A DNA stretch of 64,000 bases from Trypanosoma brucei (lineage: Eukaryota). Numbering within the stretch: the first letter of the stretch is position 1; each line of letters begins with the position of its first letter. This document shows positions 45,167 to 64,000 of this stretch, in pieces. The notes beneath the pieces were generated by a model. It was not told the DNA's origin. It did not search any database and saw only the letters and a list, made by a program, of their open reading frames with translations. The position numbers and the translations under genes were made by a program. Location of the stretch: assembly GCA_000002445.1 (NCBI GenBank), contig CP000071.1:320001-384000 (forward strand). Reading direction: 5' to 3'.

Positions 45167-46222
45167 TTAGTGCCCACCACAGTGTCCGCAACACGGGCAG
45201 AAGTTAAGCACCTGATTCTCCCTCGATGTTGCCTCATCCCACTTAACATCCTCACCACTAATGAATCCCTTTAGTGGCACTAGCTCCAATCCCAGCCCAA
45301 TCCCCAGAGATGACGAAATGATCTGCACATCCTCCATCGGTTTCCCCTTCTGGTGATGATCTCCTACAAAAACAACTGGTGGCGCCGTCAACTGGGGGCC
45401 GGAGCCGCTTCCCACAGACGAGGTATCGCTGAGGCGCCTTAGCGTAGACACAAGCTCGGCAGCAGTTGAACCGACAAAGTGCACATCAACAGCGCACGAG
45501 GAGCCACTCTTCACAAAGTCACGTGCACAGAGAGTGAGATGTTCAGCTAAAAAGTCCAAACCCTCCTGCACGATGGGGTTCTTTTTCTCGCAGCCAACGA
45601 TACAATCATACGGCAACCGCACTACCACATGTTTTATTCGGTTAAACACCCCACGAAGCGAGGCATAGGCGGCCAGCCACGCCACCTCAACAGCAATCTT
45701 GGTGGCTGCTTCCTCCAGCAGAATGTACGAGACGTCTAACACAACCACCTCCCCAAAATTCACGTCCTTCGAGAGTCGGAACTGAATTAGTTCGGGTGGG
45801 AAGTAATGTGTAACAACAACTGGTGTCTGAGATGAGGTACGCGATGTTAGTTGAGTATATCCTGTCGAGCCCAGGTTTTGATCCGACTGCCTACCAGCGC
45901 TGAAACTGGAAGAAAAGAAGGTGGTGGTTACGTTTGCCTTCGGAGGAAAGATACACAAATCGTCATATACTATGTCGTACATGTTCCAGATCTCCCTCCA
46001 CACGGCACTGCACAACTGCGCGTTCACCTCCGCATTATTGTCAACATCAGGAACCTGAACACCCACATGGAAGTGAGAGAAAATCATAGGTTGGGTTTTA
46101 CCGCTCAGTGTGAAGTCCACCGCGGGTGGACGTGTGTTTGTAAGGCGAAAGCCCCGCAGATGAACCAGTAGCGCCTGCGAATTCTCTGGCGAGGCGCCAT
46201 TGCCGCGAACGCGAAGAAACAT
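45167..46222 (-). CDS. Conserved hypothetical protein (351 aa), no recognisable domain; C-terminus CPCCGHCGGH.
   Basis: ORF with an ATG start (MFLRVRG...), co-oriented with and evenly spaced from its neighbours. Confidence 0.5.
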   Translation of the reverse strand: MFLRVRGNGASPENSQALLVHLRGFRLTNTRPPAVDFTLSGKTQPMIFSHFHVGVQVPDVDNNAEVNAQLCSAVWREIWNMYDIVYDDLCIFPPKANVTTTFFSSSFSAGRQSDQNLGSTGYTQLTSRTSSQTPVVVTHYFPPELIQFRLSKDVNFGEVVVLDVSYILLEEAATKIAVEVAWLAAYASLRGVFNRIKHVVVRLPYDCIVGCEKKNPIVQEGLDFLAEHLTLCARDFVKSGSSCAVDVHFVGSTAAELVSTLRRLSDTSSVGSGSGPQLTAPPVVFVGDHHQKGKPMEDVQIISSSLGIGLGLELVPLKGFISGEDVKWDEATSRENQVLNFCPCCGHCGGH

Positions 46223-47459: not shown

Positions 47460-48488
47460 TCAGATGTTCGTGGAGTCTCGAAGCAACTCATGCTTCCTCC
47501 CCGCCACCCTTTTGGTATCTGCGTACGAAAACGCCCTCTGAGAGGCTGCGCCCCGGATTTTGACAATGTTCTCTGAGTCCCCACTTACTAAGGACTGTGA
47601 TGTCGCCCGCGATACGGGAGCGGAATGGAAATGTTGTGACACACCCTGTCCTGTGGATCCGCTGCCATTGGTGCTACGGCGGCGGTTGGCCACAGTGTTT
47701 CTACCGGTCTCTAATTCATTGGAAAAGCGATTCCCCCCTGTGGAGTTGTTGTTCTTAAAACACGAACGGATCTGCCGCGTCGGGAGACACGATGACTTGT
47801 TAATGGCGATAAACTGTTGCTCCTTCCGGTTTGCTTCCAACGGTTCGAAAGCCTGTGTGTGGACCGCCGCTACGGTTGGGCGTTGCGAAGGGGGTTGTGG
47901 CGTCCCCCGACGGCTCCTTAGGAGACCCTGCGATTCCTGTTGTAAATCCTCCCGGCGCGCAATCCGTTCCTGCTCCAACTTCTTCGTCATCTCTGCCAGC
48001 TCCGTTTCTAGCGTTTCTACCTCCTTCCGGCGCTCCTTTCTCGCCTGCTTCAGAGTAGTGTTATGAGTTGAAACGGAAGCAATGAGTTGCCGCTCACGGT
48101 CTGCCCACGTAGTGTTCTCTTCTTCTAACACAGCCTCAAAGTCCGTCCGGTCTTGTAGTCGTTTATCTCCCTCTTTGATGAAAGTTACCGTGTCGCTCAT
48201 TTTCACGTACCGTTTAACAGCCTCGTCGTGTTCTTTCTTTAGCCACTCTCTGCGCGACCGAACTTCTTCAAACTCTCGTACAGACCTATTGATTTTTGCC
48301 TCCTGCTCCTCCACGATACCGAGCAGTTCCGCCCTTTCCTTTTCCACTCTCTTGAGGTCATCATCGATTGTTTTCCTAAGTTCAATTCGGTGCTTCCTGG
48401 CGGTTTCAAGGTCGCGCTTGATCAACTCTCTCGTCTCCTCCAACTTGCCAGCGCAACTCGAAAAGGACCGCGTAAGAACCGAGGACAT
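47460..48488 (-). CDS. Coiled-coil protein (N-terminal ~200 aa highly charged heptad-rich region, C-terminal Ser/Thr/Asn-rich tail).
   Basis: Trimmed from the TTG track start to the ATG at 48488..48486 (verified). Sequence such as RELIKRDLETARKHRIELRKTIDDDLKRVEKERAELLGIVEEQEAKI is typical of a coiled coil. Confidence 0.5.
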   Translation of the reverse strand: MSSVLTRSFSSCAGKLEETRELIKRDLETARKHRIELRKTIDDDLKRVEKERAELLGIVEEQEAKINRSVREFEEVRSRREWLKKEHDEAVKRYVKMSDTVTFIKEGDKRLQDRTDFEAVLEEENTTWADRERQLIASVSTHNTTLKQARKERRKEVETLETELAEMTKKLEQERIARREDLQQESQGLLRSRRGTPQPPSQRPTVAAVHTQAFEPLEANRKEQQFIAINKSSCLPTRQIRSCFKNNNSTGGNRFSNELETGRNTVANRRRSTNGSGSTGQGVSQHFHSAPVSRATSQSLVSGDSENIVKIRGAASQRAFSYADTKRVAGRKHELLRDSTNI

Positions 48489-49464
48489 AATATAGAAGTA
48501 AAACACGTAGGTCACCAACGTAACGAAGGAACAGTGCCCGGCCCTGCTCCTGTGGCACCCCGTATATTTAAGCGAAAAAAATCTTGCTCTTCCACCTGCT
48601 TACTTTGTCAGTGGAAACGCTACAACCTAATTTAAGAAGAAGGAGTTGTTGTTGGGACGAATAAAAGTAGCAGGTTTAGAGAAAATTGGTAGCATACGCA
48701 CTGTCTCTAACCATATCTCTCTTAATGGTCTGAAGCGACCGTGTATACACCGCCGAACCGCTGACCCCTACACACGTGCGCCAATGTTGTCCTCACATGC
48801 TTTCATGCATGAAGGTCGCGGCGATGGTGAGGGAAGGAAAAGAAAGGAAAGGATTGAGTTAAAAGATGTGTCCCGCAACCGTCTAAATGCCACAAGAAAA
48901 CCCCACGGCGGAAAATGTAGGAAAAGGCAACCCTTCCTTTCAGTGCGGGTCAACGGCACATGAGAAGTCGACAAAAGTGATACAAAGAATGGTGTTTCCC
49001 AAGAATGCAAAGGCACAACAAAAGTATTTTTAATACTAGCAAGGAACAAGGGTAACAGTAAAGGAACATGTCGCAGGTTCACAGGGTCCATGATCACTAA
49101 AGTCCACAATCAACAACAGAACGAGAGTTGTAGGAAAACAAAAATTGGTCAAAAGTTTTACTCACATTATCATTATAGCATGCAGAGTCCCCAAAGGGTA
49201 AAGGAAACAGAAAAACTATATGAACCAATACTCACCCCGCACCTACCCACTGCATAACACTTACATCAAATACCAAAGTGCTCACACATTTACGTAAGTG
49301 CAAATTCCCTTCTTTCATGCCTCCGTGCAACCGAAAAAAAAAACCTCCATCACACGCAGGTTTCGTTTGCAACCACGTATATGAATTATCAACCCCCCCC
49401 TCCCCTCCGCATCCCTACACTCCCTCCTCACTCTCTTCTCTTCTCTTCTCAAACATTTCCTACA

Positions 49465-52400
49465 TCATCTAATACGTTCCTCGCACCAAGCGCTCATACG
49501 TCTCCATCCTCGCTCCCGAGGATGACTATGCCTCGACCACCAAAACTGGCTAACGCCCCGCATTGTTACATGTTCTCTCACCCTCTGCCATTGTGCCCTC
49601 GCCACCAGGCGCTGTCCAAAACGCATATAACTTCCCACATTATTCGAAGCAGAAGAATGATGCTCAACATCCTCAGCTAACTTCACGGCAATGCGACGCG
49701 CCCCCGGTTCCATGTCCTCCAGTTCAGCACCCTTTTCAAATGAGGGTTCCGACACCGGAATCAGGCGGGAAACAGAAACAAATACAAGTGTCAGCGATGC
49801 AATCAGAATCGATGCAATCCACTGTTCTGCTCTCAACGGTACACACGACATAAACTCTTTTAAGACCTCCACGGCCAAAACCTGAAAACCCACACAACAA
49901 ACCACGATAACCAAAAATGACTTTGAACGAATAAAAAGCCCTTCAAATACATTAACTTCATCATACACTTTGCGGGCATTAAACATATTAAATATGGTAA
50001 AGAAAATAAAAACGTTAAAAACAACAGTTGGAAGTTCCTTCCCCTTCGCCTTTAACCACTTACCACCATATTGGGTTAATAAAAGAACGCTAACAACCTG
50101 AACTACAGTAGCAGTCAGTATTGTCAACCACATTCGACGTGAGACAAGGGGAGCTCGGGGGGAAGACGGACCACGATTTAAGCAATCCTCTGTCGGTTGC
50201 TCCGTTGCGAGAGCGAGGGCCGCAAGTGTGTCCATAAGAAGATTTACCCATAACAGCTGTACAGTCGTTAACGGTGACATATCATGAGCAGACAAAAAAG
50301 AACCAACAAAAACAACAACAATAGAAGCAATATTAATAGAAAGTTGTAACTGCAGGAACTTGCGGATGTTGTCATTCACAGTCCGTCCCCAAACAACGGC
50401 ACGCTGGACAGAACGGAAGTTGTCGTCTAAAAGCACAATATCACCGGACTTCACCGCTATATCCGTGCCACTGCGCATCACAAAACCCACATTTGCAAGA
50501 CGCAGCGCAGGGGCGTCATTTGTCCCATCACCAGTCACAGCAACGACCTCACCACGGAGCATCAGCATCAGTACGAGCAGTTGCTTGTCCAGAGGCTGCG
50601 AACGCCCCATCACCATCATCCGGTCAAGAACAGGCCAGAACTTCTCCATGTTCGCCTCGTCACCATAAGTGTCATACACAAGGTTGCGGAAGTCCTTCCC
50701 AGTGAGCGCAAGATCACCACGCAGTCGATTGTAAATTCCACATTGCCGAGAAATTGCAACGGCTGTGTCGAGATTGTCACCCGTACACATCCTCACTGTC
50801 ACTCCCGCACGCTGGCACATTCGCACAGCATCCACAACCTCTGGACGAAGCGGGTCCTGGATGCCTAATAGTGCAAGCCACACAAATGGTCCCTCGGGTT
50901 CCTCCTCGGGAACCGCACCGTCCGTACCGATACGCCCGTATGCCACGCCGATTGTGCGATTTGCGTCCCCCGCTATTGACCGTATCTGCGCAGTGATCAT
51001 CTCAGTTACCTCCTCCGTCAGCGGCTCCTCACGACCCTCTGACGACAAGTATCGGTTGCACATGCCAAGCACACGATCAGAGCCCCCTTTCACGTACTGC
51101 ATCACAACTCCATCCGCACCTGCAACCACAGCAGTCATAAACTTCCGTTCGCTCGTAAAAGGAAAGATGGCAAAGCCACGGCTGCGGTTTGTCATGCGTA
51201 ACTTCTGGTGTGGAAGCTCCTTGTCATTACAACTACCCGGTACCGATATCAACACGCGATCCACAAAATCCAATATCGCTTGGTCAGTTTTGTTGCCCTT
51301 GTCGGTACGCCACGTCCATCGAGACAGTAAGTCAGACTCAGCTCCCACATTACCTGGTAAAAGCTCCTTCTCACTCGAACTATTCAGTGCAAGACCAAGC
51401 ATTAGTAACGACTGTGCATCACTAGACACACCCTCCAGATTAACCGTGGACGAGGGATCTCCGGGATTCGAGACACGGAACCGCCGCATCCCAATGTAAC
51501 CTTGTACCACAGTCATACGATTCTGAGTCAGCGTCCCAGTTTTATCACTACAAATCTGTGTTGCATTGCCCATTGTCTCACAAGCACACAAACGCCTCAC
51601 CTGATTATTGTCCTTCTGCATCTGGCTCTGTGAGTACGCAAGAGCAATCGTCACCGCCAACGGCAAGCCCTCTGGCACTGCGACGACAACAATCGTCACA
51701 CAAAGTAAAAAAATATCAAGAAACTTTTTTGCGCGTAACTCTTCTTTACCACGAAGAACGAGAAGGATGTAAAACAAAGAAAGCAGAGACATAAGTATCA
51801 CTGCCGCTCCAATTCCTATCCGACCAATAAACCCAGCTAATTCGTCCAATCGCTCCTGCAAGGGAGTCGCCCTCGGTTCACCGTCGAGACGAGATTCCAT
51901 TAGCAGCTTTCCACCAAAAGAAGACTCACCGACGGCGCACGCAAGAATGTAAGCATCCTCAGCCGTACTCACAACAGTCCCAGAAAGTAAGATTGGATGT
52001 TCGGCGCCTTTCTTTTTCAGATCATTCTCGCCAGTCACACTCGACTCATCAACAACAACACTCAAACCACGTACGTATAAACCATCTACAGGGATAACAA
52101 GACCCGGTGACAAGGACACAAGATCACCCACAACAATTTCTGTCACATCCACCGTAACCTTGTGACCATCACGAATGACGGAGATTGGCTGAGCAGAGTT
52201 CTCCTCCACAAGAGCACGGAATTTCAACTCCTTGCGGTAATCCTGAATAGACGATGCTGAGGTTACTGCAATCACGGCCATAAGAATGGCGGTGCCCTCT
52301 ATCCAACCTGTCTTATAGTCAACCTTCTCGTGTCCGGGTTCCGGCACAGTTAACCCGAGGATAAGCGACACACATGCGGCAAGGGTCAAAAGTATGATCA

Positions 52401-52773
52401 TGCGGTCACTCCATGCAGCTTTAAAAATCTTCCAGAATGTCAGCGGAGCCTCCTCAGGAAGCTCATTCCTCCCATACACAGCACGCCGATTCTCTACAGA
52501 AAAAGAGTCGATGCCATCTGTTATACTCGTGCCAAGTCGTTCGGCAATACCCTCAACGCCGCCAAGTTCCTCGTATAGGGGCTTAGCGTCACCGACGCAA
52601 CTGAACAAGGTGTGAAGCTCTCCCTTAATCCCTATGCCGATACGATCTTCGAGCTCCACCTCCACTGCAACGGACCCATCACTTCTGGTAAGGCCAGTGG
52701 ATAAAAACGCTTGCCTCTCTCGACCGCGGCCGGCAAGTGTACCGTAGTTCGAAGTGTCTTTTGGGGAAATCAT
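49465..52773 (-). CDS. PMCA/vacuolar-type Ca2+-transporting P-type ATPase, array copy A (1102 aa), with a C-terminal ~270 aa divergent from copies B and C.
   Basis: P-type ATPase motifs CSDKTGTLTQN (phosphorylation site), MCTGDN, GDGTNDAPAL and PEGLPLAVTIALAYS. The track start at 52776 is GTG; the ATG is at 52773..52771 (verified). The length of 1102 aa matches my recollection of one of the two T. brucei PMC proteins (TbPMC2), which is unconfirmed. Confidence 0.85.
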   Translation of the reverse strand: MISPKDTSNYGTLAGRGRERQAFLSTGLTRSDGSVAVEVELEDRIGIGIKGELHTLFSCVGDAKPLYEELGGVEGIAERLGTSITDGIDSFSVENRRAVYGRNELPEEAPLTFWKIFKAAWSDRMIILLTLAACVSLILGLTVPEPGHEKVDYKTGWIEGTAILMAVIAVTSASSIQDYRKELKFRALVEENSAQPISVIRDGHKVTVDVTEIVVGDLVSLSPGLVIPVDGLYVRGLSVVVDESSVTGENDLKKKGAEHPILLSGTVVSTAEDAYILACAVGESSFGGKLLMESRLDGEPRATPLQERLDELAGFIGRIGIGAAVILMSLLSLFYILLVLRGKEELRAKKFLDIFLLCVTIVVVAVPEGLPLAVTIALAYSQSQMQKDNNQVRRLCACETMGNATQICSDKTGTLTQNRMTVVQGYIGMRRFRVSNPGDPSSTVNLEGVSSDAQSLLMLGLALNSSSEKELLPGNVGAESDLLSRWTWRTDKGNKTDQAILDFVDRVLISVPGSCNDKELPHQKLRMTNRSRGFAIFPFTSERKFMTAVVAGADGVVMQYVKGGSDRVLGMCNRYLSSEGREEPLTEEVTEMITAQIRSIAGDANRTIGVAYGRIGTDGAVPEEEPEGPFVWLALLGIQDPLRPEVVDAVRMCQRAGVTVRMCTGDNLDTAVAISRQCGIYNRLRGDLALTGKDFRNLVYDTYGDEANMEKFWPVLDRMMVMGRSQPLDKQLLVLMLMLRGEVVAVTGDGTNDAPALRLANVGFVMRSGTDIAVKSGDIVLLDDNFRSVQRAVVWGRTVNDNIRKFLQLQLSINIASIVVVFVGSFLSAHDMSPLTTVQLLWVNLLMDTLAALALATEQPTEDCLNRGPSSPRAPLVSRRMWLTILTATVVQVVSVLLLTQYGGKWLKAKGKELPTVVFNVFIFFTIFNMFNARKVYDEVNVFEGLFIRSKSFLVIVVCCVGFQVLAVEVLKEFMSCVPLRAEQWIASILIASLTLVFVSVSRLIPVSEPSFEKGAELEDMEPGARRIAVKLAEDVEHHSSASNNVGSYMRFGQRLVARAQWQRVREHVTMRGVSQFWWSRHSHPRERGWRRMSAWCEERIR

Positions 52774-53425: not shown

Positions 53426-54421
53426 CTACAGGTCACGTAGGAGTGATGAAATGAGAAGGGTACCATCGCACAGAGCCTCTAGATGCTGAGCCTGTTCCCT
53501 AAGTTGCACCAGTGCCAACATTGTGTCCACTCCACGTGCGGGGGGTACATTGTTTTCATCTCGCTGGTTTCTGGAAGTTTCCCGACTGAGTTTGCCCTCC
53601 AAATCACTTAAGTTTCGCTGTACAGACTCAAGGAGGGCAACCTTGTAATCAGCCATAGAATCAGAGTGATGTACTGTACTGTTGCTTGGCAACGGTGCGA
53701 TATCAATGCCGTTTAGGCAAAAAAGTTGATAAGCATCCACCTCCACCTCCACCTTCACCTCGCGAAGCACACCTTGCTTGGGGACCGAACACGCACGCAG
53801 AAGCCGTGCTTCTTCCTGCATCCCACTCTTCTTGTCAGTCTTTTTGGTTTTTTTGTTCTTTCTGGAAAAGTCGAGAAATGCATCCGTCGGCACGAACGCA
53901 CGAAGGTACAACTTACCCATTAGGCCGGTACGGAAGGGGTCGTAGACAAGAAGCACACTTGGGTGACCGTCAATTGCCAAGTTCGCCAACCGATCAGCTG
54001 TCACAACCGAGTAGGGATCATTCACACAAGCACTGGAAACAATGAAGTAACCTACGCTATAACTGTCTAGGCACTCCTTACGCAGCATCTCCTTTACTTT
54101 CTCGTACATCTTCTGCTGCTGTTTACTCTCGGCCGTGTCATCCCGCTCATCCTCTGCGTCACCAGAAGCTCCCAGGCTGGGAAGAACACTCGTGATGAGA
54201 ATCGTATCCCCTTGTTGAACTCCACAAAGACGTCCGCCGACGGCACTGTGGCACGTGGCATCCTGCGAGAAGCTGCCGAGATGTGTGAGGGCGGGAAATG
54301 ATATGCGAACTTTCTTCGCTGGCGGCAGTTCCACGTGAGAATCACTATCCTTCGCGAATATCGATTCGCCAGTGGGGGCGTCGTCGGAAACGACCTGAAC
54401 CTGCGGAAAACCGTGAAACAT
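53426..54421 (-). CDS. MPN (JAB/Mov34) domain protein with a C-terminal coiled-coil tail, likely translation initiation factor eIF3 subunit h; array copy 1.
   Basis: MPN-like core (GDTILITSVLPS...GYFIVSS...HPSVLLVYDP) and a C-terminal helical region. ATG at 54421 verified. The eIF3h assignment is from fold pattern and memory of a duplicated eIF3h at this locus, so it is an inference. Confidence 0.6.
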   Translation of the reverse strand: MFHGFPQVQVVSDDAPTGESIFAKDSDSHVELPPAKKVRISFPALTHLGSFSQDATCHSAVGGRLCGVQQGDTILITSVLPSLGASGDAEDERDDTAESKQQQKMYEKVKEMLRKECLDSYSVGYFIVSSACVNDPYSVVTADRLANLAIDGHPSVLLVYDPFRTGLMGKLYLRAFVPTDAFLDFSRKNKKTKKTDKKSGMQEEARLLRACSVPKQGVLREVKVEVEVDAYQLFCLNGIDIAPLPSNSTVHHSDSMADYKVALLESVQRNLSDLEGKLSRETSRNQRDENNVPPARGVDTMLALVQLREQAQHLEALCDGTLLISSLLRDL

Positions 54422-55581: not shown

Positions 55582-58500
55582 TCATACCATCCTTAATGTG
55601 TCATAAAGTTGTCGGGTGGAGCCCCGTTTCATATCGCGATCCGTCCATGCGCGGCGGAATGCATTAACAACACGAGGTTTCTTCACATGCTCTGCCTGAA
55701 GTCTACGCCACCGCGACTGCGCACGCAACCGACCCGCAAGAAGCGAAGAGGCGTCACTTGTCCCGTCCGTCTCCCGCTGCCTCTGCTCCGCAGCCACCGA
55801 AACATCTTTGATGAGGCGAGAGGCACTACCGTCGACATTTCTACTATCTGGTATCAGTGCAAACACAGGTTCCCTGATGCTCACCACCCGGCTCAAAATA
55901 CCCACAACAAGTGAAATGGCAGCAATACCGATACTTACACCCCATTGCTTGATCGAAAGGGGACGGACACCCATAAAGTCGTTAAAGGTGCAGATGGCCA
56001 ACACTTGAAACGCAATGCACGAACCGACGACAACAATAAAAAATACCGACCGACCCATCCCTTCAAACACATTAAGTTCTCGGTACAATTTGCGACAATT
56101 TAACATGTGGAATATAGTGCCGAAAACAAAAACGTTGAATAGAAATGTTCGGTGCAAATGCTTGCCATTCTCATCCTCCCCAAAATACTTTCCACCAAAC
56201 GTGAGCACAGAAAAGAAAGCAGTTAGCTGAACTGTGGCAACGGAAAAAATTGTGAACCACATTCGACGTGAGACAAGGGGAGCTCGGGGGGAAGACGGAC
56301 CACGATTTAAGCAATCCTCTGTCGGTTGCTCCGTTGCGAGAGCAGGGGCCGCAAGTGTGTCCATAAGAAGATTTACCCATAACAGCTGTACAGTCGTTAA
56401 CGGTGAAGACTTACCCTCCCTCACGAGGGTACCTACGACGGTTAATGAAAAACACACCAAATTCACCGTGAACTGTAACTGCAGGAACTTGCGGATGTTG
56501 TCATTCACAGTCCGCCCCCAAACAACGGCACGCTGGACGGAACGGAAGTTGTCGTCTAAAAGCACAATATCACCGGACTTCACCGCTATATCCGTGCCAC
56601 TGCGCATCACAAAACCCACATTTGCAAGACGCAGCGCAGGGGCGTCATTTGTCCCATCACCAGTCACAGCAACGACCTCACCACGGAGCATCAGCATCAG
56701 TACGAGCAGTTGCTTGTCCAGAGGCTGCGAACGCCCCATCACCATCATCCGGTCAAGAACAGGCCAGAACTTCTCCATGTTCGCCTCGTCACCATAAGTG
56801 TCATACACAAGGTTGCGGAAGTCCTTCCCAGTGAGCGCAAGATCACCACGCAGTCGATTGTAAATTCCACATTGCCGAGAAATTGCAACGGCTGTGTCGA
56901 GATTGTCACCCGTACACATCCTCACTGTCACTCCCGCACGCTGGCACATTCGCACAGCATCCACAACCTCTGGACGAAGCGGGTCCTGGATGCCTAATAG
57001 TGCAAGCCACACAAATGGTCCCTCGGGTTCCTCCTCGGGAACCGCACCGTCCGTACCGATACGCCCGTATGCCACGCCGATTGTGCGATTTGCGTCCCCC
57101 GCTATTGACCGTATCTGCTCAGTGATCATCTCAGTTACCTCCTCCGTCAGCGGCTCCTCACGACCCTCTGACGACAAGTATCGGTTGCACATGCCAAGCA
57201 CACGATCAGAGCCCCCTTTCACGTACTGCATCACAACTCCATCCGCACCTGCAACCACAGCAGTCATAAACTTCCGTTCGCTCGTAAAAGGAAAGATGGC
57301 AAAGCCACGGCTGCAGTTTGTCATGCGTAACTTCTGGTGTGGAAGCTCCTTGTCATTACAACTACCCGGTACCGATATCAACACGCGATCCACAAAATCC
57401 AATATCGCTTGGTCAGTTTTGTTGCCCTTGTCGGTACGCCACGTCCATCGAGACAGTAAGTCAGACTCAGCTCCCACATTACCTGGTAAAAGCTCCTTCT
57501 CACTCGAACTATTCAGTGCAAGACCAAGCATTAGTAACGACTGTGCATCACTAGACACACCCTCCAGATTAACCGTGGACGAGGGATCTCCGGGATTCGA
57601 GACACGGAACCGCCGCATCCCAATGTAACCTTGTACCACAGTCATACGATTCTGAGTCAGCGTCCCAGTTTTATCACTGCAAATCTGTGTTGCATTGCCC
57701 ATTGTCTCACAAGCACACAAACGCCTCACCTGATTATTGTCCTTCTGCATCTGGCTCTGTGAGTACGCAAGAGCAATCGTCACCACCAATGGCAAGCCCT
57801 CTGGCACTGCAATAACAACAATCGTCACACAAAGTAGGAGAAAGTTCAGGAACTTCTTCGGGTAAAATTGTTGTTTGTTTGTAGCAATTCGCTCAATTTC
57901 GATGATACAAAGTACTATGAAAAAAAGAACGGCGGATATAATTGCAACTCGAGCGATGAAGCTAACTAAGTTTTGCGACCGCTCCTGCAAGGGAGTCGCC
58001 CTCGGTTCACCGTCGAGACGAGATTCCATTAGCAGCTTTCCACCAAAAGAAGACTCACCGACGGCGCACGCAAGAATGTAAGCATCCTCAGCCGTACTCA
58101 CAACAGTCCCAGAAAGTAAGATTGGATGTTCGGCGCCTTTCTTTTTCAGATCATTCTCGCCAGTCACACTCGACTCATCAACAACAACACTCAAACCACG
58201 TACGTATAAACCATCTACAGGGATAACAAGACCCGGTGACAAGGACACAAGATCACCCACAACAATTTCTGTCACATCCACCGTAACCTTGTGACCATCA
58301 CGAATGACGGAGATTGGCTGAGCAGAGTTCTCCTCCACAAGAGCACGGAATTTCAACTCCTTGCGGTAATCCTGAATAGACGATGCTGAGGTTACTGCAA
58401 TCACGGCCATAAGAATGGCGGTGCCCTCTATCCAACCTGTCTTATAGTCAACCTTCTCGTGTCCGGGTTCCGGCACAGTTAACCCGAGGATAAGCGACAC

Positions 58501-59554: not shown

Positions 59555-60550
59555 CTACAGGTCACGTAGGAGTGATGAAATGAGAAGGGTACCATCGCAC
59601 AGAGCCTCTAGATGCTGAGCCTGTTCCCTAAGTTGCACCAGTGCCAACATTGTGTCCACTCCACGTGCGGGGGGTACATTGTTTTCATCTCGCTGGTTTC
59701 TGGAAGTTTCCCGACTGAGTTTGCCCTCCAAATCACTTAAGTTTCGCTGTACAGACTCAAGGAGGGCAACCTTGTAATCAGCCATAGAATCAGAGTGATG
59801 TACTGTACTGTTGCTTGGCAACGGTGCGATATCAATGCCGTTTAGGCAAAAAAGTTGATAAGCATCCACCTCCACCTCCACCTTCACCTCGCGAAGCACA
59901 CCTTGCTTGGGGACCGAACACGCACGCAGAAGCCGTGCTTCTTCCTGCATCCCACTCTTCTTGTCAGTCTTTTTGGTTTTTTTGTTCTTTCTGGAAAAGT
60001 CGAGAAATGCATCCGTCGGCACGAACGCACGAAGGTACAACTTACCCATTAGGCCGGTACGGAAGGGGTCGTAGACAAGAAGCACACTTGGGTGACCGTC
60101 AATTGCCAAGTTCGCCAACCGATCAGCTGTCACAACCGAGTAGGGATCATTCACACAAGCACTGGAAACAATGAAGTAACCTACGCTATAACTGTCTAGG
60201 CACTCCTTACGCAGCATCTCCTTTACTTTCTCGTACATCTTCTGCTGCTGTTTACTCTCGGCCGTGTCATCCCGCTCATCCTCTGCGTCACCAGAAGCTC
60301 CCAGGCTGGGAAGAACACTCGTGATGAGAATCGTATCCCCTTGTTGAACTCCACAAAGACGTCCGCCGACGGCACTGTGGCACGTGGCATCCTGCGAGAA
60401 GCTGCCGAGATGTGTGAGGGCGGGAAATGATATGCGAACTTTCTTCGCTGGCGGCAGTTCCACGTGAGAATCACTATCCTTCGCGAATATCGATTCGCCA
60501 GTGGGGGCGTCGTCGGAAACGACCTGAACCTGCGGAAAACCGTGAAACAT
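59555..60550 (-). CDS. MPN-domain protein (eIF3h-like), array copy 2, with protein identical to 53426..54421.
   Basis: Identical 331-aa translation. ATG at 60550 verified. The longer overlapping ORF 60223..60729(-) is in another frame and is an artefact. Confidence 0.6.
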   Translation of the reverse strand: MFHGFPQVQVVSDDAPTGESIFAKDSDSHVELPPAKKVRISFPALTHLGSFSQDATCHSAVGGRLCGVQQGDTILITSVLPSLGASGDAEDERDDTAESKQQQKMYEKVKEMLRKECLDSYSVGYFIVSSACVNDPYSVVTADRLANLAIDGHPSVLLVYDPFRTGLMGKLYLRAFVPTDAFLDFSRKNKKTKKTDKKSGMQEEARLLRACSVPKQGVLREVKVEVEVDAYQLFCLNGIDIAPLPSNSTVHHSDSMADYKVALLESVQRNLSDLEGKLSRETSRNQRDENNVPPARGVDTMLALVQLREQAQHLEALCDGTLLISSLLRDL

Positions 60551-61715: not shown

Positions 61716-64000
61716 TCATACCATCCTTAATGTGTCATAAAGTTGTCGGGTGGAGCCCCGTTTCATATCGCGATCCGTCCATGCGCGGCGGAATGCATTA
61801 ACAACACGAGGTTTCTTCACATGCTCTGCCTGAAGTCTACGCCACCGCGACTGCGCACGCAACCGACCCGCAAGAAGCGAAGAGGCGTCACTTGTCCCGT
61901 CCGTCTCCCGCTGCCTCTGCTCCGCAGCCACCGAAACATCTTTGATGAGGCGAGAGGCACTACCGTCGACATTTCTACTATCTGGTATCAGTGCAAACAC
62001 AGGTTCCCTGATGCTCACCACCCGGCTCAAAATACCCACAACAAGTGAAATGGCAGCAATACCGATACTTACACCCCATTGCTTGATCGAAAGGGGACGG
62101 ACACCCATAAAGTCGTTAAAGGTGCAGATGGCCAACACTTGAAACGCAATGCACGAACCGACGACAACAATAAAAAATACCGACCGACCCATCCCTTCAA
62201 ACACATTAAGTTCTCGGTACAATTTGCGACAATTTAACATGTGGAATATAGTGCCGAAAACAAAAACGTTGAATAGAAATGTTCGGTGCAAATGCTTGCC
62301 ATTCTCATCCTCCCCAAAATACTTTCCACCAAACGTGAGCACAGAAAAGAAAGCAGTTAGCTGAACTGTGGCAACGGAAAAAATTGTGAACCACATTCGA
62401 CGTGAGACAAGGGGAGCTCGGGGGGAAGACGGACCACGATTTAAGCAATCCTCTGTCGGTTGCTCCGTTGCGAGAGCGAGCGCCGCAAGTGTGTCCATAA
62501 GAAGATTTACCCATAACAGCTGTACAGTCGTTAACGGTGAAGACTTACCCTCCCTCACGAGGGTACCTACAACAGTTACTAGAAAAGAAACAACGTTCAC
62601 GGTTAATTGCAGCTGCAGGAACTTGCGGATGTTGTCATTCACAGTCCGCCCCCAAACAACGGCACGCTGGACAGAACGGAAGTTGTCGTCTAAAAGCACA
62701 ATATCACCGGACTTCACCGCTATATCCGTGCCACTGCGCATCACAAAACCCACATTTGCAAGACGCAGCGCAGGGGCGTCATTTGTCCCATCACCAGTCA
62801 CAGCAACGACCTCACCACGGAGCATCAGCATCAGTACGAGCAGTTGCTTGTCCAGAGGCTGCGAACGCCCCATCACCATCATCCGGTCAAGAACAGGCCA
62901 GAACTTCTCCATGTTCGCCTCGTCACCATAAGTGTCATACACAAGGTTGCGGAAGTCCTTCCCAGTGAGCGCAAGATCACCACGCAGTCGATTGTAAATT
63001 CCACATTGCCGAGAAATTGCAACGGCTGTGTCGAGATTGTCACCCGTACACATCCTCACTGTCACTCCCGCACGCTGGCACATTCGCACAGCATCCACAA
63101 CCTCTGGACGAAGCGGGTCCTGGATGCCTAATAGTGCAAGCCACACAAATGGTCCCTCGGGTTCCTCCTCGGGAACCGCACCGTCCGTACCGATACGCCC
63201 GTATGCCACGCCGATTGTGCGATTTGCGTCCCCCGCTATTGACCGTATCTGCTCAGTGATCATCTCAGTTACCTCCTCCGTCAGCGGCTCCTCACGACCC
63301 TCTGACGACAAGTATCGGTTGCACATGCCAAGCACACGATCAGAGCCCCCTTTCACGTACTGCATCACAACTCCATCCGCACCTGCAACCACAGCAGTCA
63401 TAAACTTCCGTTCGCTCGTAAAAGGAAAGATGGCAAAGCCACGGCTGCGGTTTGTCATGCGTAACTTCTGGTGTGGAAGCTCCTTGTCATTACAACTACC
63501 CGGTACCGATATCAACACGCGATCCACAAAATCCAATATCGCTTGGTCAGTTTTGTTGCCCTTGTCGGTACGCCACGTCCATCGAGACAGTAAGTCAGAC
63601 TCAGCTCCCACATTACCTGGTAAAAGCTCCTTCTCACTCGAACTATTCAGTGCAAGACCAAGCATTAGTAACGACTGTGCATCACTAGACACACCCTCCA
63701 GATTAACCGTGGACGAGGGATCTCCGGGATTCGAGACACGGAACCGCCGCATCCCAATGTAACCTTGTACCACAGTCATACGATTCTGAGTCAGCGTCCC
63801 AGTTTTATCACTGCAAATCTGTGTTGCATTGCCCATTGTCTCACAAGCACACAAACGCCTCACCTGATTATTGTCCTTCTGCATCTGGTTCTGTGAGTAC
63901 GCAAGAGCAATCGTCACCGCCAACGGCAAGCCCTCTGGCACTGCGACGACAACAATCGTCACACAAAGTAGGAGAAAGTTCAGGAACTTCTTCGGGTAAA
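61716..64000 (-). CDS. PMCA/vacuolar-type Ca2+-ATPase, array copy C, 5'-truncated by the window edge (the N-terminal about 350 codons lie beyond 64000).
   Basis: The reading frame is open to the window end. The track's M at 63962 is an internal GTG, not a start. The C-terminal region matches copy B, and an internal segment around 63900..63960 matches copy A. Confidence 0.8.
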   Translation of the reverse strand, partial: YPKKFLNFLLLCVTIVVVAVPEGLPLAVTIALAYSQNQMQKDNNQVRRLCACETMGNATQICSDKTGTLTQNRMTVVQGYIGMRRFRVSNPGDPSSTVNLEGVSSDAQSLLMLGLALNSSSEKELLPGNVGAESDLLSRWTWRTDKGNKTDQAILDFVDRVLISVPGSCNDKELPHQKLRMTNRSRGFAIFPFTSERKFMTAVVAGADGVVMQYVKGGSDRVLGMCNRYLSSEGREEPLTEEVTEMITEQIRSIAGDANRTIGVAYGRIGTDGAVPEEEPEGPFVWLALLGIQDPLRPEVVDAVRMCQRAGVTVRMCTGDNLDTAVAISRQCGIYNRLRGDLALTGKDFRNLVYDTYGDEANMEKFWPVLDRMMVMGRSQPLDKQLLVLMLMLRGEVVAVTGDGTNDAPALRLANVGFVMRSGTDIAVKSGDIVLLDDNFRSVQRAVVWGRTVNDNIRKFLQLQLTVNVVSFLVTVVGTLVREGKSSPLTTVQLLWVNLLMDTLAALALATEQPTEDCLNRGPSSPRAPLVSRRMWFTIFSVATVQLTAFFSVLTFGGKYFGEDENGKHLHRTFLFNVFVFGTIFHMLNCRKLYRELNVFEGMGRSVFFIVVVGSCIAFQVLAICTFNDFMGVRPLSIKQWGVSIGIAAISLVVGILSRVVSIREPVFALIPDSRNVDGSASRLIKDVSVAAEQRQRETDGTSDASSLLAGRLRAQSRWRRLQAEHVKKPRVVNAFRRAWTDRDMKRGSTRQLYDTLRMV

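What the first reader, a model, noticed from the sequence alone, without database searches (positions are those of the whole stretch)
56407..56475. Hypervariable ~65-bp in-frame patch present as three different versions in the three ATPase copies
Immediately upstream (in gene orientation) of the conserved island, each copy carries a different equal-length replacement. These are copy A 50278..50347 (QLQLSINIASIVVVFVGSFLSAHDMS), copy B 56407..56475 (QLQFTVNLVCFSLTVVGTLVREGKSS) and copy C about 62541..62603 (QLQLTVNVVSFLVTVVGTLVREGKSS). B and C share their first 30 nt and then differ. All variants stay in frame and hydrophobic, consistent with a transmembrane helix diversified between paralogues. 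This might relate to different membrane targeting, as acidocalcisome versus plasma-membrane isoforms are known for kinetoplastid PMCAs.
Basis: partly seen in the sequence, partly recalled or inferred. Interest (0 to 1): 0.55.

Follow-up and report, generated by a model that had tools for sequence, protein, structure and literature searches.

The report
Copy-specific membrane helix in trypanosome calcium pumps
Three neighbouring calcium-pump genes of Trypanosoma brucei are kept almost identical by DNA copying between them, but a 72-base stretch encoding the fifth membrane helix has stayed old and different in each copy; this is a clear example of a known process, not a new kind of element.

Summary
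The window is T. brucei brucei TREU927 chromosome 8. It holds the tandem PMCA genes Tb927.8.1160 (A), Tb927.8.1180/TbPMC1 (B) and Tb927.8.1200/TbPMC2 (C). The patch is 24 codons: A 50278-50349, B 56407-56478, C 62541-62612, minus strand. It encodes transmembrane helix M5 and the M5-M6 loop. It holds 41 of the 48 A/B differences across codons 384-882 (P=5e-53). Synonymous divergence is saturated inside it (dS about 2) and 0-0.03 in the flanks.

It is not hypervariable. Versions A and C are base-for-base identical in T. b. equiperdum, and A also in T. b. gambiense. dN/dS is below 1. Core substitutions are shared by paralogues within a strain, which marks concerted evolution.

The patch is one of two internal islands (M3-M4 and M5). 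Both escaped the gene conversion that homogenises codons ~63-882. T. vivax and L. donovani pairs show the same tract boundaries but identical M5, so the large M5 trimorphism was seen only in T. brucei.

The membrane-targeting idea is unsupported. Two points remain open. Copy A's patch has T at 20 of 24 third codon positions. And the non-homogenised membrane blocks include M3, M5 and M7, the helices that wall the PtdIns(4,5)P2/thapsigargin pocket of mammalian pumps.

The parts
56407..56478 (-). Patch, version B (24 codons, LQFTVNLVCFSLTVVGTLVREGKS): M5 helix plus M5-M6 loop of Tb927.8.1180/TbPMC1
   Evidence: Alignment to PMCA1 6a69 and PMCA2 9gsd places it at PMCA2 residues 836-857. It is the fifth hydropathy peak.
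50278..50349 (-). Patch, version A (LQLSINIASIVVVFVGSFLSAHDM) in Tb927.8.1160; T at 20 of 24 third codon positions
   Evidence: The DNA is identical in T. b. gambiense (L001) and T. b. equiperdum (L007).
62541..62612 (-). Patch, version C (LQLTVNVVSFLVTVVGTLVREGKS) in Tb927.8.1200/TbPMC2. The gene-3' 27-30 nt are identical to B; the gene-5' 45 nt carry 15 differences from B.
   Evidence: The DNA is identical in T. b. equiperdum L007.
56254..56406 (-). Homogenised island (M6, SPLTTVQLLWVNLLMDT...RRMW) between the patch and the divergent 3' module. The counterparts are A 50125-50277 and C 62388-62540.
   Evidence: 2-3 differences in 153 nt between any pair; dS 0.025-0.05.
57785..57979 (-). Second internal island: M3, the M3-M4 loop and the N-terminal half of M4 (codons 308-373). 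The counterpart in A is 51656-51850. C is only partly inside the window.
   Evidence: A/B dS is 1.5 over codons 306-352. The block is trimorphic at its 5' end (SQNLVSFIA in B, LDELAAFIG in C, LDELAGFIG in A).
55582..56253 (-). Paralogue-specific 3' module (M7-M10 plus C-terminal tail). It is 100% identical in B and C (C 61716-62387) and 43-44% identical at protein level to A (A 49465-50124).
49465..52773 (-). Copy A gene, Tb927.8.1160 (exact match to XP_846953.1)
   Evidence: gene ID from PMC6027440
55582..58902 (-). Copy B gene, Tb927.8.1180 = TbPMC1 (exact match to XP_846955.1)
61716..64000 (-). Copy C gene, Tb927.8.1200 = TbPMC2. Its 5' end lies beyond the window; the part inside matches XP_846957.1.
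53426..54421 (-). 331-aa hypothetical gene inside the 6.13-kb repeat unit. A second, 100% identical copy lies at 59555-60550.

Best explanation
The patch is the M5 transmembrane helix (plus the M5-M6 loop) of three tandem P2B (PMCA-type) Ca2+-ATPase genes that evolve in concert. Gene conversion and unequal crossing-over between the 6.13-kb repeat units keep codons ~63-882 nearly identical within a genome. Two short internal islands (M3-M4 and this M5 patch), the N-terminal ~60 codons and everything from M7 onward have escaped that homogenisation, and they carry old, copy-specific sequence. Copy B is a hybrid: it has an A-like 5' end and a C-like 3' end. An unequal crossover in an ancestral [C][A] pair would produce this. 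Shown: the mosaic itself; the saturated synonymous divergence inside the patch against about zero outside it; the stability of each version between strains; and the within-strain sharing of core substitutions. Inferred: the island persists because conversion tracts stop at, or are rejected over, such dense mismatches. Each version is kept under purifying selection, possibly because M5 must fit the copy's own M3 and M7. It is a fixed, copy-specific cassette, not a hypervariable or diversity-generating site.
For: Locus identity and PMCA membership. Repeat period 6129/6134. Mosaic map. A/B dS: patch 2.0, M3-M4 1.5, M7-M10 1.14, tail saturated, against core 0-0.01 and M6 0.025. B/C dS: 0.73 over the patch and saturated in its 5' half, against 0 downstream. 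dN/dS is below 1. Concerted evolution: at five core sites (B-CDS nt 1678, 1726, 1758, 2136, 2253) both T. b. equiperdum copies share a base that differs from all three TREU927 copies. In the same alignment all 45 variable columns around the patch sort by paralogue and not by strain. Core identity is 99-100% within species and 68-76% between species, while A's M7-M10 is 62% identical to a T. congolense copy but only 44% to B/C. The same homogenised tract with the same boundaries (about codons 63 and 883) is seen in T. vivax, L. donovani and T. congolense. T. congolense has the same three N-terminus/3'-module combinations. T. vivax and T. b. equiperdum have a two-copy [C-like][A-like] array. General precedent for mosaics and concerted evolution in T. 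brucei arrays, including the chimeric middle PGK copy: PMC1855330. This locus is listed as a 6215-bp, 3-copy segmental duplication in PMC2854126.
Against: A 45-72-nt heterology flanked by kilobases of perfect identity would normally be co-converted. A purely neutral escape therefore needs an unusually effective mismatch barrier. The M6 island (153 nt) is homogenised although it lies between two diverged blocks, which is awkward for simple long-tract conversion. All three T. brucei M5 versions are also unusually far from the kinetoplastid consensus (27-55% identity, against 59-73% among the other taxa within each of the two sequence types). So something beyond passive retention happened in this lineage. 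No conversion event was observed directly. Strain sampling is thin: TREU927, one T. b. equiperdum assembly, one collapsed T. b. gambiense assembly and a few clones.
Confidence: 0.75

Rival explanations
1. Adaptive module. The M5 versions, together with the M3 island and M7-M10, are held apart by selection. They would form a copy-specific helix-packing surface or lipid-regulatory pocket tuned to the membrane each pump works in (acidocalcisome or plasma membrane). Conversions that mix the modules would be eliminated. This accepts the conversion mosaic but makes selection, not a mismatch barrier, the reason the island exists.
For: The non-homogenised membrane blocks are M3 with the first half of M4, M5, and M7-M10. 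In mouse PMCA2 the membrane-facing sides of M3, M5 and M7 form the PtdIns(4,5)P2 pocket, which is the thapsigargin pocket of SERCA (PMC12488499; PMC2828472). The patch starts right after the Q837 equivalent and surrounds the conserved N841 equivalent. The edges are sharp and the island is tiny within kilobases of identity. dN/dS below 1 shows that each version is functional. M5 is otherwise well conserved across kinetoplastids. In the reliable assemblies A-M3/A-M5/A-3' always travel together, and likewise the B and C sets. T. congolense also dips at M3-M4.
Against: T. vivax and L. donovani paralogues work with identical M3 and M5 but different M7-M10. The PMCA2 head-group ligands K347 and Q351 align to E or N and to F here (motif alignment). 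T. congolense islands also fall in cytoplasmic domains. The linkage of A-M5 with A-3' could simply reflect their 153-nt distance. There are no lipid or activity data for these pumps.
Confidence: 0.3
2. Targeting determinant. The M5 version decides whether the pump goes to acidocalcisomes or to the plasma membrane.
For: B (TbPMC1, acidocalcisome) and C (TbPMC2, plasma membrane) differ in the patch. TM length and composition can influence sorting (general knowledge).
Against: B and C differ at only 5 residues of M5, and the length is equal. They differ completely in the N-terminal ~60 residues. Paralogue pairs of other trypanosomatids keep distinct termini but an identical M5. The deposited clone Q8I919 combines a C-type N-terminus with a B-type patch (the reliability of this clone is uncertain).
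Confidence: 0.05
3. Recent import or single mutational burst. A short conversion tract from an outside donor, or one error-prone repair event, wrote the patch into an already homogenised gene.
For: In T. vivax and Leishmania the tract through M5-M6 is fully homogenised, so an ancestor may have been too. The M6 island downstream of the patch is homogenised. Copy A's patch has an alien-looking codon composition.
Against: No donor was found. The patch sequence is unique in the window, and the T. brucei-group protein clusters hold only these three versions. The only other T. brucei PMCA listed, Tb927.10.11620, did not appear among the named T. brucei hits and is probably too distant for conversion; I did not examine it. 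The excess of synonymous over non-synonymous change (6 of 11 changed codons are silent in B/C, dN/dS 0.17) is not what a random burst gives. Version A still matches the T. vivax/T. cruzi M5 at 10-11 of 22 residues, and B/C match the T. congolense/Leishmania type.
Confidence: 0.08
4. Assembly or chimeric-read artefact.
For: Collapsed or chimeric versions of this array do exist in other assemblies: the single T. b. gambiense gene, flagged as an assembly omission in PMC2854126, and the T. vivax Y486 gene.
Against: Each version is seen in independent data with identical DNA or protein. All versions are in frame and under purifying selection.
Confidence: 0.01

Closest known systems
T. brucei phosphoglycerate kinase array (three tandem copies; described in PMC1855330 section 13)
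   Same: Three tandem paralogues in one polycistron. [quoted passage not shown] The array is homogenised but holds retained copy-specific segments, and the isoforms work in different compartments.
   Different: That paper attributes the PGK differences to glycosomal versus cytoplasmic isoforms and does not describe membrane helices. Here the retained islands are membrane helices (M3, M5) of a pump, and no function has been shown for them.
Concerted evolution with 'mixed dynamics' in T. brucei tandem arrays (Jackson 2007, PMC1855330; T. b. gambiense genome paper PMC2854126)
   Same: Within-species homogenisation, mosaic breakpoints, and copies that keep orthology where structure diverges. This very locus is listed there as a 6215-bp, 3-copy segmental duplication with a unique isoform.
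   Different: Neither paper describes the M5 or M3 islands or their boundaries. Jackson 2007 does not mention the ATPase array at all.
PtdIns(4,5)P2 / thapsigargin pocket of mammalian PMCA2 and SERCA (PMC12488499)
   Same: The helix is homologous. The Q837, N841, M872 and D873 equivalents are conserved in all three copies. The walls of the pocket (M3, M5, M7) are among the membrane helices that are copy-specific here.
   Different: The head-group ligands K347 and Q351 are not conserved by alignment. No lipid regulation is known for the trypanosome pumps. This is a resemblance of place only, not a tested function.
Selected islands that resist conversion between duplicated genes, for example primate red/green opsins and RHD/RHCE (own knowledge, not checked here)
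   Same: Short diverged segments with sharp edges, embedded in converted and near-identical paralogues.
   Different: In those cases the selected residues and phenotype are known. Here selection is only one of two candidate causes.
Segmental (mosaic) conversion in VSG genes, and other true hypervariable cassettes
   Same: Same organism and the same recombination machinery; short in-frame replacement blocks.
   Different: There is no repertoire of donors and no between-strain variability, dN/dS is below 1, and only three fixed versions exist.

Membership tests
P2B (PMCA-type) Ca2+-ATPase, helix M5 | Full P-type ATPase domain set, with the closest solved relatives being PMCAs | tested here: met
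   Pfam Cation_ATPase_N, E1-E2_ATPase, Cation_ATPase, Hydrolase and Cation_ATPase_C on the homologues. Best PDB hits are PMCA1 6a69 (E=7e-178) and PMCA2 9gsd.
P2B (PMCA-type) Ca2+-ATPase, helix M5 | Catalytic and ion-site motifs: DKTGT, PEGLP (M4), the N and D of M6, the Asn of M5, and no Glu at the SERCA E771 position (a single Ca2+ site) | tested here: met
   CSDKTGTLT, VPEGLPL and WVNLLMD are present in all copies. The M5 Asn (the PMCA2 N841 equivalent) is conserved in A, B and C. The residue three positions after it is S, C and S (Ala in PMCA2), never Glu.
P2B (PMCA-type) Ca2+-ATPase, helix M5 | The patch coincides with the fifth transmembrane segment | tested here: met
   It is the fifth of ten hydropathy peaks in A. 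It aligns without gaps to M5 of PMCA1 and PMCA2, with a 2-residue insertion in the M5-M6 loop.
Concerted evolution (gene conversion / unequal crossover) in a tandem array | Paralogues within a genome are more alike than orthologues, while some segments keep orthology | tested here: met
   Core identity is 99-100% within T. brucei, T. vivax and L. donovani, against 68-76% between species. A's M7-M10 is 62% identical to T. congolense P0003 but 44% to B/C.
Concerted evolution (gene conversion / unequal crossover) in a tandem array | Strain-specific substitutions shared by the paralogues of that strain | tested here: met
   At five core sites both T. b. equiperdum copies differ from all three TREU927 copies.
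Concerted evolution (gene conversion / unequal crossover) in a tandem array | Sharp breakpoints with contrasting divergence on either side | tested here: met
   dS is 0-0.03 in the flanks against 0.7 to more than 2 in the patch. Hypergeometric P is 5e-53 (A/B) and 4e-17 (B/C).
Concerted evolution (gene conversion / unequal crossover) in a tandem array | Direct observation of conversion events or tracts | not testable with these tools
   This needs pedigrees, experimental lines or population long-read data.
Hypervariable / diversifying-selection region | Variation of the same copy between strains | tested here: not met
   Versions A and C show 0 differences between TREU927 and T. b. equiperdum, and A also matches T. 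b. gambiense, at all 45 variable columns except one silent M6 base in T. b. gambiense. One residue differs in T. equiperdum AQT20549.
Hypervariable / diversifying-selection region | Excess of non-synonymous change (dN/dS above 1) | tested here: not met
   dN/dS is 0.17 (B/C), 0.45 (A/B) and 0.50 (A/C) by NG86. With 24 codons these estimates are noisy.
PtdIns(4,5)P2-regulated PMCA pocket (M3/M5/M7) | M5 latch residues Q837 and N841, and M6 residues M872 and D873 | tested here: met
   KFLQLQ-x3-N and LLMDT are conserved in all three copies. The chain numbering was verified on 9gsd_A.
PtdIns(4,5)P2-regulated PMCA pocket (M3/M5/M7) | Positively charged vestibule and head-group ligands (K334, K347, Q351) | tested here: not met
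   By the TPLQ..L..LA..IG motif alignment, K347 aligns to E (A, C) or N (B) and Q351 aligns to F. K334 was not mapped. The alignment within hydrophobic M3 is uncertain; compare.
PtdIns(4,5)P2-regulated PMCA pocket (M3/M5/M7) | Lipid binding and lipid-dependent activity | not testable with these tools
   This needs biochemistry or cryo-EM.

The most novel reading that the evidence does not exclude
The islands are not leftovers. In T. brucei the membrane parts that resist homogenisation are M3 (with the first half of M4), M5 and M7-M10. M3, M5 and M7 are the three walls of the lipid pocket that binds PtdIns(4,5)P2 in mammalian PMCA2 and thapsigargin in SERCA. Each paralogue may therefore carry its own version of a lipid-regulatory pocket, matched to the lipids of the acidocalcisome or the plasma membrane, and selection may protect it against conversion. 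As a separate oddity, the all-NNT recoding of copy A's M5 may be a nucleotide-level signal, such as a U-rich element or a translational pause during M5-M6 insertion, that distinguishes an otherwise identical mRNA.
Probability: 0.12. Interest if true: 0.6.

Novelty: new member of a known kind. Interest (0 to 1): 0.3.

Why it matters
The genes are known and essential Ca2+ pumps of a human and livestock pathogen, and concerted evolution in trypanosome arrays is well described. The added value is a precise map. Almost all of the pump is identical in the three isoforms. The copy-specific information sits in five places: the N-terminus, M3-M4, M5, M7-M10 and the tail. That map tells experimenters which few segments can explain the different localisation and regulation of TbPMC1, TbPMC2 and the uncharacterised Tb927.8.1160. 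It shows where isoform-specific probes, RNAi or CRISPR guides can be placed: the 72-nt patch is one of the few internal unique tags. It also warns that published single-copy models (T. b. gambiense, T. vivax Y486) are chimeras. If the M3/M5/M7 coincidence is functional, the array would be a natural experiment on the lipid pocket of PMCAs.

Tried and rejected
1. Assembly artefact: rejected, because the versions recur in independent assemblies and clones.

2. Hypervariability or positive selection: rejected (dN/dS below 1; no between-strain differences).

3. Single mutational burst: rejected on the synonymous excess.

4. Donor inside the window: none. The A patch is unique even allowing 3 mismatches.

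5. Microsatellite slippage as the origin of the T-rich A patch: Tandem Repeats Finder finds only a weak 13-nt low-complexity match with score 40.

6. The T. b. gambiense gene (C-type 5' end plus A-type patch and 3' end) as evidence for module shuffling: rejected, because PMC2854126 marks this locus as omitted from the assembly. The same caution applies to T. vivax Y486. It probably also applies to T. equiperdum SCU68942.

7. Exact-protein look-up of copy B in public assemblies: nothing on record.

8. Luo et al. 2004 (JBC) is not held, so I could not tell which deposited TbPMC2 sequence was localised.

9. Jackson 2007 does not mention this array.

10. The neighbour genes give no Pfam clue. The gene after copy A is unrelated to the 331-aa gene of the repeat unit.

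11. A helical-face analysis of the five B/C differences (done by hand, no tool call) gave no clear single face, so it was not used.

12. The tool returns no coordinates, so helix contacts could not be measured.
Full report
**Observation.** The minus strand of the window carries three tandem copies of a P-type ATPase gene, with a period of 6129/6134 nt. In a three-way DNA alignment the copies are about 100% identical on both sides of a 24-codon block (A 50278-50349, B 56407-56478, C 62541-62612). Inside the block A/B differ at 41 of 72 nt, A/C at 36 of 72 and B/C at 15 of 72. The clustering is far beyond chance. 41 of the 48 A/B differences across codons 384-882 lie in the block (hypergeometric P=5e-53). 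15 of the 26 B/C differences across 2283 nt lie in it (P=4e-17).

**What the locus is.** Copies A and B are exact matches to XP_846953.1 and XP_846955.1 of T. brucei brucei TREU927. The part of copy C inside the window matches XP_846957.1. By the literature these are Tb927.8.1160 (uncharacterised), Tb927.8.1180 (TbPMC1, acidocalcisomes) and Tb927.8.1200 (TbPMC2, plasma membrane) (PMC6884021; PMC4263762; PMC6027440). The closest solved structures are human PMCA1 (6a69, E=7e-178) and PMCA2 (9gsd). The block is the fifth hydropathy peak. It aligns to M5 and the short M5-M6 loop of PMCA1/2, and the 'conserved island' downstream of it is M6. On the 9gsd_A numbering the block begins just after the Q837 equivalent and contains the N841 equivalent. 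Both residues, and M872/D873 in M6, are conserved in all three copies.

**The patch is one piece of a mosaic.** Along the gene, A and B are identical from upstream of the start codon to codon ~305. They diverge over codons 308-373 (M3, the M3-M4 loop and half of M4), are identical again over codons 384-808, diverge in the patch (809-832), are identical in M6 (833-882), and diverge completely from M7 to the 3' UTR. B and C are identical from the middle of the patch through the 3' end, the intergenic region and the next gene (a 331-aa ORF, 100% identical between units). They differ in the N-terminal ~60 residues, at the start of M3, at two M4 residues, in the first half of M5 and at one M6 residue. 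B therefore has an A-like 5' end and a C-like 3' end. Unequal crossing-over in a [C][A] pair would produce this (inference). Two-copy arrays of that kind exist in T. vivax and in the T. b. equiperdum assembly.

**Old sequence, not fast-changing sequence.** For A/B, synonymous divergence is 2.0 in the patch, 1.5 in the M3 island, 1.14 in M7-M10 and saturated in the tail. It is 0-0.01 in the core and 0.025 in M6. For B/C, dS is 0.73 over the patch (saturated in its 5' half) and 0 downstream. dN/dS is 0.17 (B/C) and 0.45-0.50 (A/B, A/C). In B/C, 6 of the 11 changed codons are silent. This speaks against diversifying selection and against a single mutational burst. Between strains the patch does not vary. 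At all 45 variable columns around it, T. b. equiperdum copy C equals TREU927 C and copy A equals TREU927 A. T. b. gambiense equals A apart from one silent M6 base. By contrast, at five core sites both T. b. equiperdum copies share a base that differs from all three TREU927 copies. Core variation thus sorts by strain, while patch, M3 and 3' variation sorts by paralogue. That is the signature of concerted evolution. 'Hypervariable' is therefore the wrong word. The three versions are long-lived and copy-specific.

**Comparison across species.** T. vivax has two tandem copies that are about 100% identical from codon ~39 to just after M6 and then diverge, and their M5 differs by one silent base. 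L. donovani paralogues are identical from about residue 65 to about 885, with different termini. T. congolense has three proteins with the same three combinations as T. brucei: short N-terminus with type-2 3' module, long N-terminus with type-2 3' module, and long N-terminus with A-like 3' module. Their M5 sequences are 82-95% identical, and there is a dip at M3-M4. The homogenised tract and its two outer boundaries are therefore shared across the four trypanosomatid species compared, while the large M5 trimorphism was seen only in T. brucei. Version A resembles the T. vivax/T. cruzi type (VFVGSF.S; 45-50% identity). Versions B and C resemble the T. congolense/Leishmania/Bodo type (45-55%). 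All three are further from any outgroup than the outgroups of each type are from one another (59-73%). An old dimorphism retained only in T. brucei would fit these numbers, but 22 residues cannot establish it.

**Mechanism.** The best-supported account is partial concerted evolution. Conversion and unequal crossover homogenise the array, and the patch is an island they have not erased. This is the general behaviour Jackson described for T. brucei arrays, including the chimeric middle PGK copy (PMC1855330). The locus itself is listed as a 6215-bp, 3-copy duplication with a unique isoform in the T. b. gambiense genome paper (PMC2854126). Why the island persists is inferred, not shown. One possibility is that dense mismatches terminate or reject heteroduplex. 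The other is that selection removes recombinants. Several points favour some selection: the tiny size and sharp edges within kilobases of identity; the homogenised 153-nt M6 island just beyond the patch; the otherwise good conservation of M5 in kinetoplastids; and the location of the islands. The non-homogenised membrane blocks are M3 with the first half of M4, M5, and M7-M10. In mouse PMCA2 the membrane-facing sides of M3, M5 and M7 form the PtdIns(4,5)P2 pocket, which is equivalent to the thapsigargin pocket of SERCA (PMC12488499; PMC2828472). Three points argue against a necessary role. T. vivax and L. donovani pair one M3 and one M5 with two different M7-M10 sets. T. congolense islands also fall in cytoplasmic domains. 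And the PMCA2 head-group ligands K347 and Q351 align to E or N and to F here. The alignment inside M3 is uncertain.

**The targeting idea.** I found nothing that ties the patch to sorting. B and C differ at only five M5 residues but over the entire N-terminal ~60 residues. Other species keep distinct termini with an identical or near-identical M5. One deposited clone with the TbPMC2-type N-terminus (Q8I919) carries the B-type M3, the B-type patch and the B-type M6 proline. That clone set also shares an apparent compensated frameshift, and another deposit equals TREU927 C. The original paper could not be read. I therefore treat this clone as weak evidence.

**Unexplained.** Copy A's patch has T at 20 of 24 third codon positions (GC3 0.08). 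The gene mean T3 is 0.35, and the T. brucei singleton GC3 is 0.416 (PMC1855330). Every 24-codon window of the 64-kb window with 16 or more T3 overlaps this patch. The binomial tail is about 2e-6. The amino acids are still homologous to the T. vivax M5, which uses G/C-ending codons (3-4 of 26 T3). So this is a local synonymous shift, and it is conserved in T. b. gambiense and T. b. equiperdum. Slippage is not evident. AT drift in a segment shut out of conversion, a U-rich RNA signal, or a translational pause are all untested.

**Verdict.** The 'hypervariable' and 'targeting' parts are not supported. The phenomenon is a clean new instance of a known kind, so interest is modest. Two leads are worth a bench test: the M3/M5/M7 coincidence and the NNT recoding.

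Noticed in passing
window 50278-50349 (minus strand): Copy A's M5 patch uses NNT codons at 20 of 24 positions (GC3 0.08). It is the only such stretch in the 64-kb window, and it is conserved in T. b. gambiense and T. b. equiperdum. The T. vivax orthologous codons end mostly in G or C.
   Followed up: partly
window 56344-56346 (M6), 57785-57814 (M4) and 57315 (minus strand, copy B): Copy B (TbPMC1) alone carries changes at positions that are the same in the other sequences compared: Leu to Pro in M6 (LAAPALATE), VVIAVPEGLPLVV instead of VVVAVPEGLPLAV in the M4 Ca2+-site motif, and Arg to Cys at residue 530 (column 533 of the alignment). The same changes are present in the independent Luo-lab clones.
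   Followed up: partly
P0130 and P0131 (T. congolense IL3000 proteins), M6: The two T. congolense copies with the type-2 3' module read WVNLLNEVLAALALVLEEP where all other kinetoplastid sequences compared read WVNL(L/I)MDTLAALALATE. The M6 Asp that aligns to the Ca2+-site D873 of PMCA2 is a Glu, and its neighbours are changed too.
   Followed up: no
L001 10001-13234 (T. b. gambiense DAL972); P0133 (T. vivax Y486): The single annotated genes in these assemblies are chimeras of the first and last array members: a C-type or copy-1 N-terminus joined to an A-type or copy-2 3' module. PMC2854126 flags the T. b. gambiense locus as omitted from the assembly. They should not be used as real isoforms.
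   Followed up: yes
L003 3894-7187 (T. melophagium): The upstream tandem ATPase copy is split into two ORFs by frame disruptions that lie inside M5 (…VVL*PFCWNVFVFYQY…). This is either a pseudogene or long-read indel errors.
   Followed up: no
L002 10116-12575 (T. vivax); L. donovani P0013/P0023; T. congolense P0003/P0130: The homogenised tract has nearly the same outer boundaries (about residues 63 and 883, just after M6) in T. brucei, T. congolense, T. vivax and L. donovani. The N-terminus and the M7-to-C-terminus module therefore appear to be kept distinct across trypanosomatids.
   Followed up: partly
P0002, P0127, P0128 (GenBank AAL55433, AAL55434, AAP46286): The three Luo-lab deposits share HGYSGEVRC in place of the conserved TDIAVKSGD, and K for T in GDGTND. 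This looks like a compensated frameshift or sequencing error, not biology.
   Followed up: no
L007 3948-13312 (T. b. equiperdum, GCA_003543875.1): This chromosome-level assembly has only two array members ([C][331-aa gene][A]) and no B-type copy. This is either a copy-number polymorphism or a collapse of the near-identical B unit.
   Followed up: partly
window 56234-56797 and 62368-62931 (plus strand): Identical 187-codon antisense ORFs overlap the patch in copies B and C, but no such ORF is listed in copy A. They are listed mechanically, and there is no evidence that they are genes.
   Followed up: no
window 47460-48518 and 45167-46222 (minus strand): The two ~350-aa ORFs downstream of copy A have no Pfam match. 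They are unrelated to each other, and the one next to copy A is unrelated to the 331-aa gene of the repeat unit. The repeat unit therefore ends inside or just after copy A's 3' module.
   Followed up: partly
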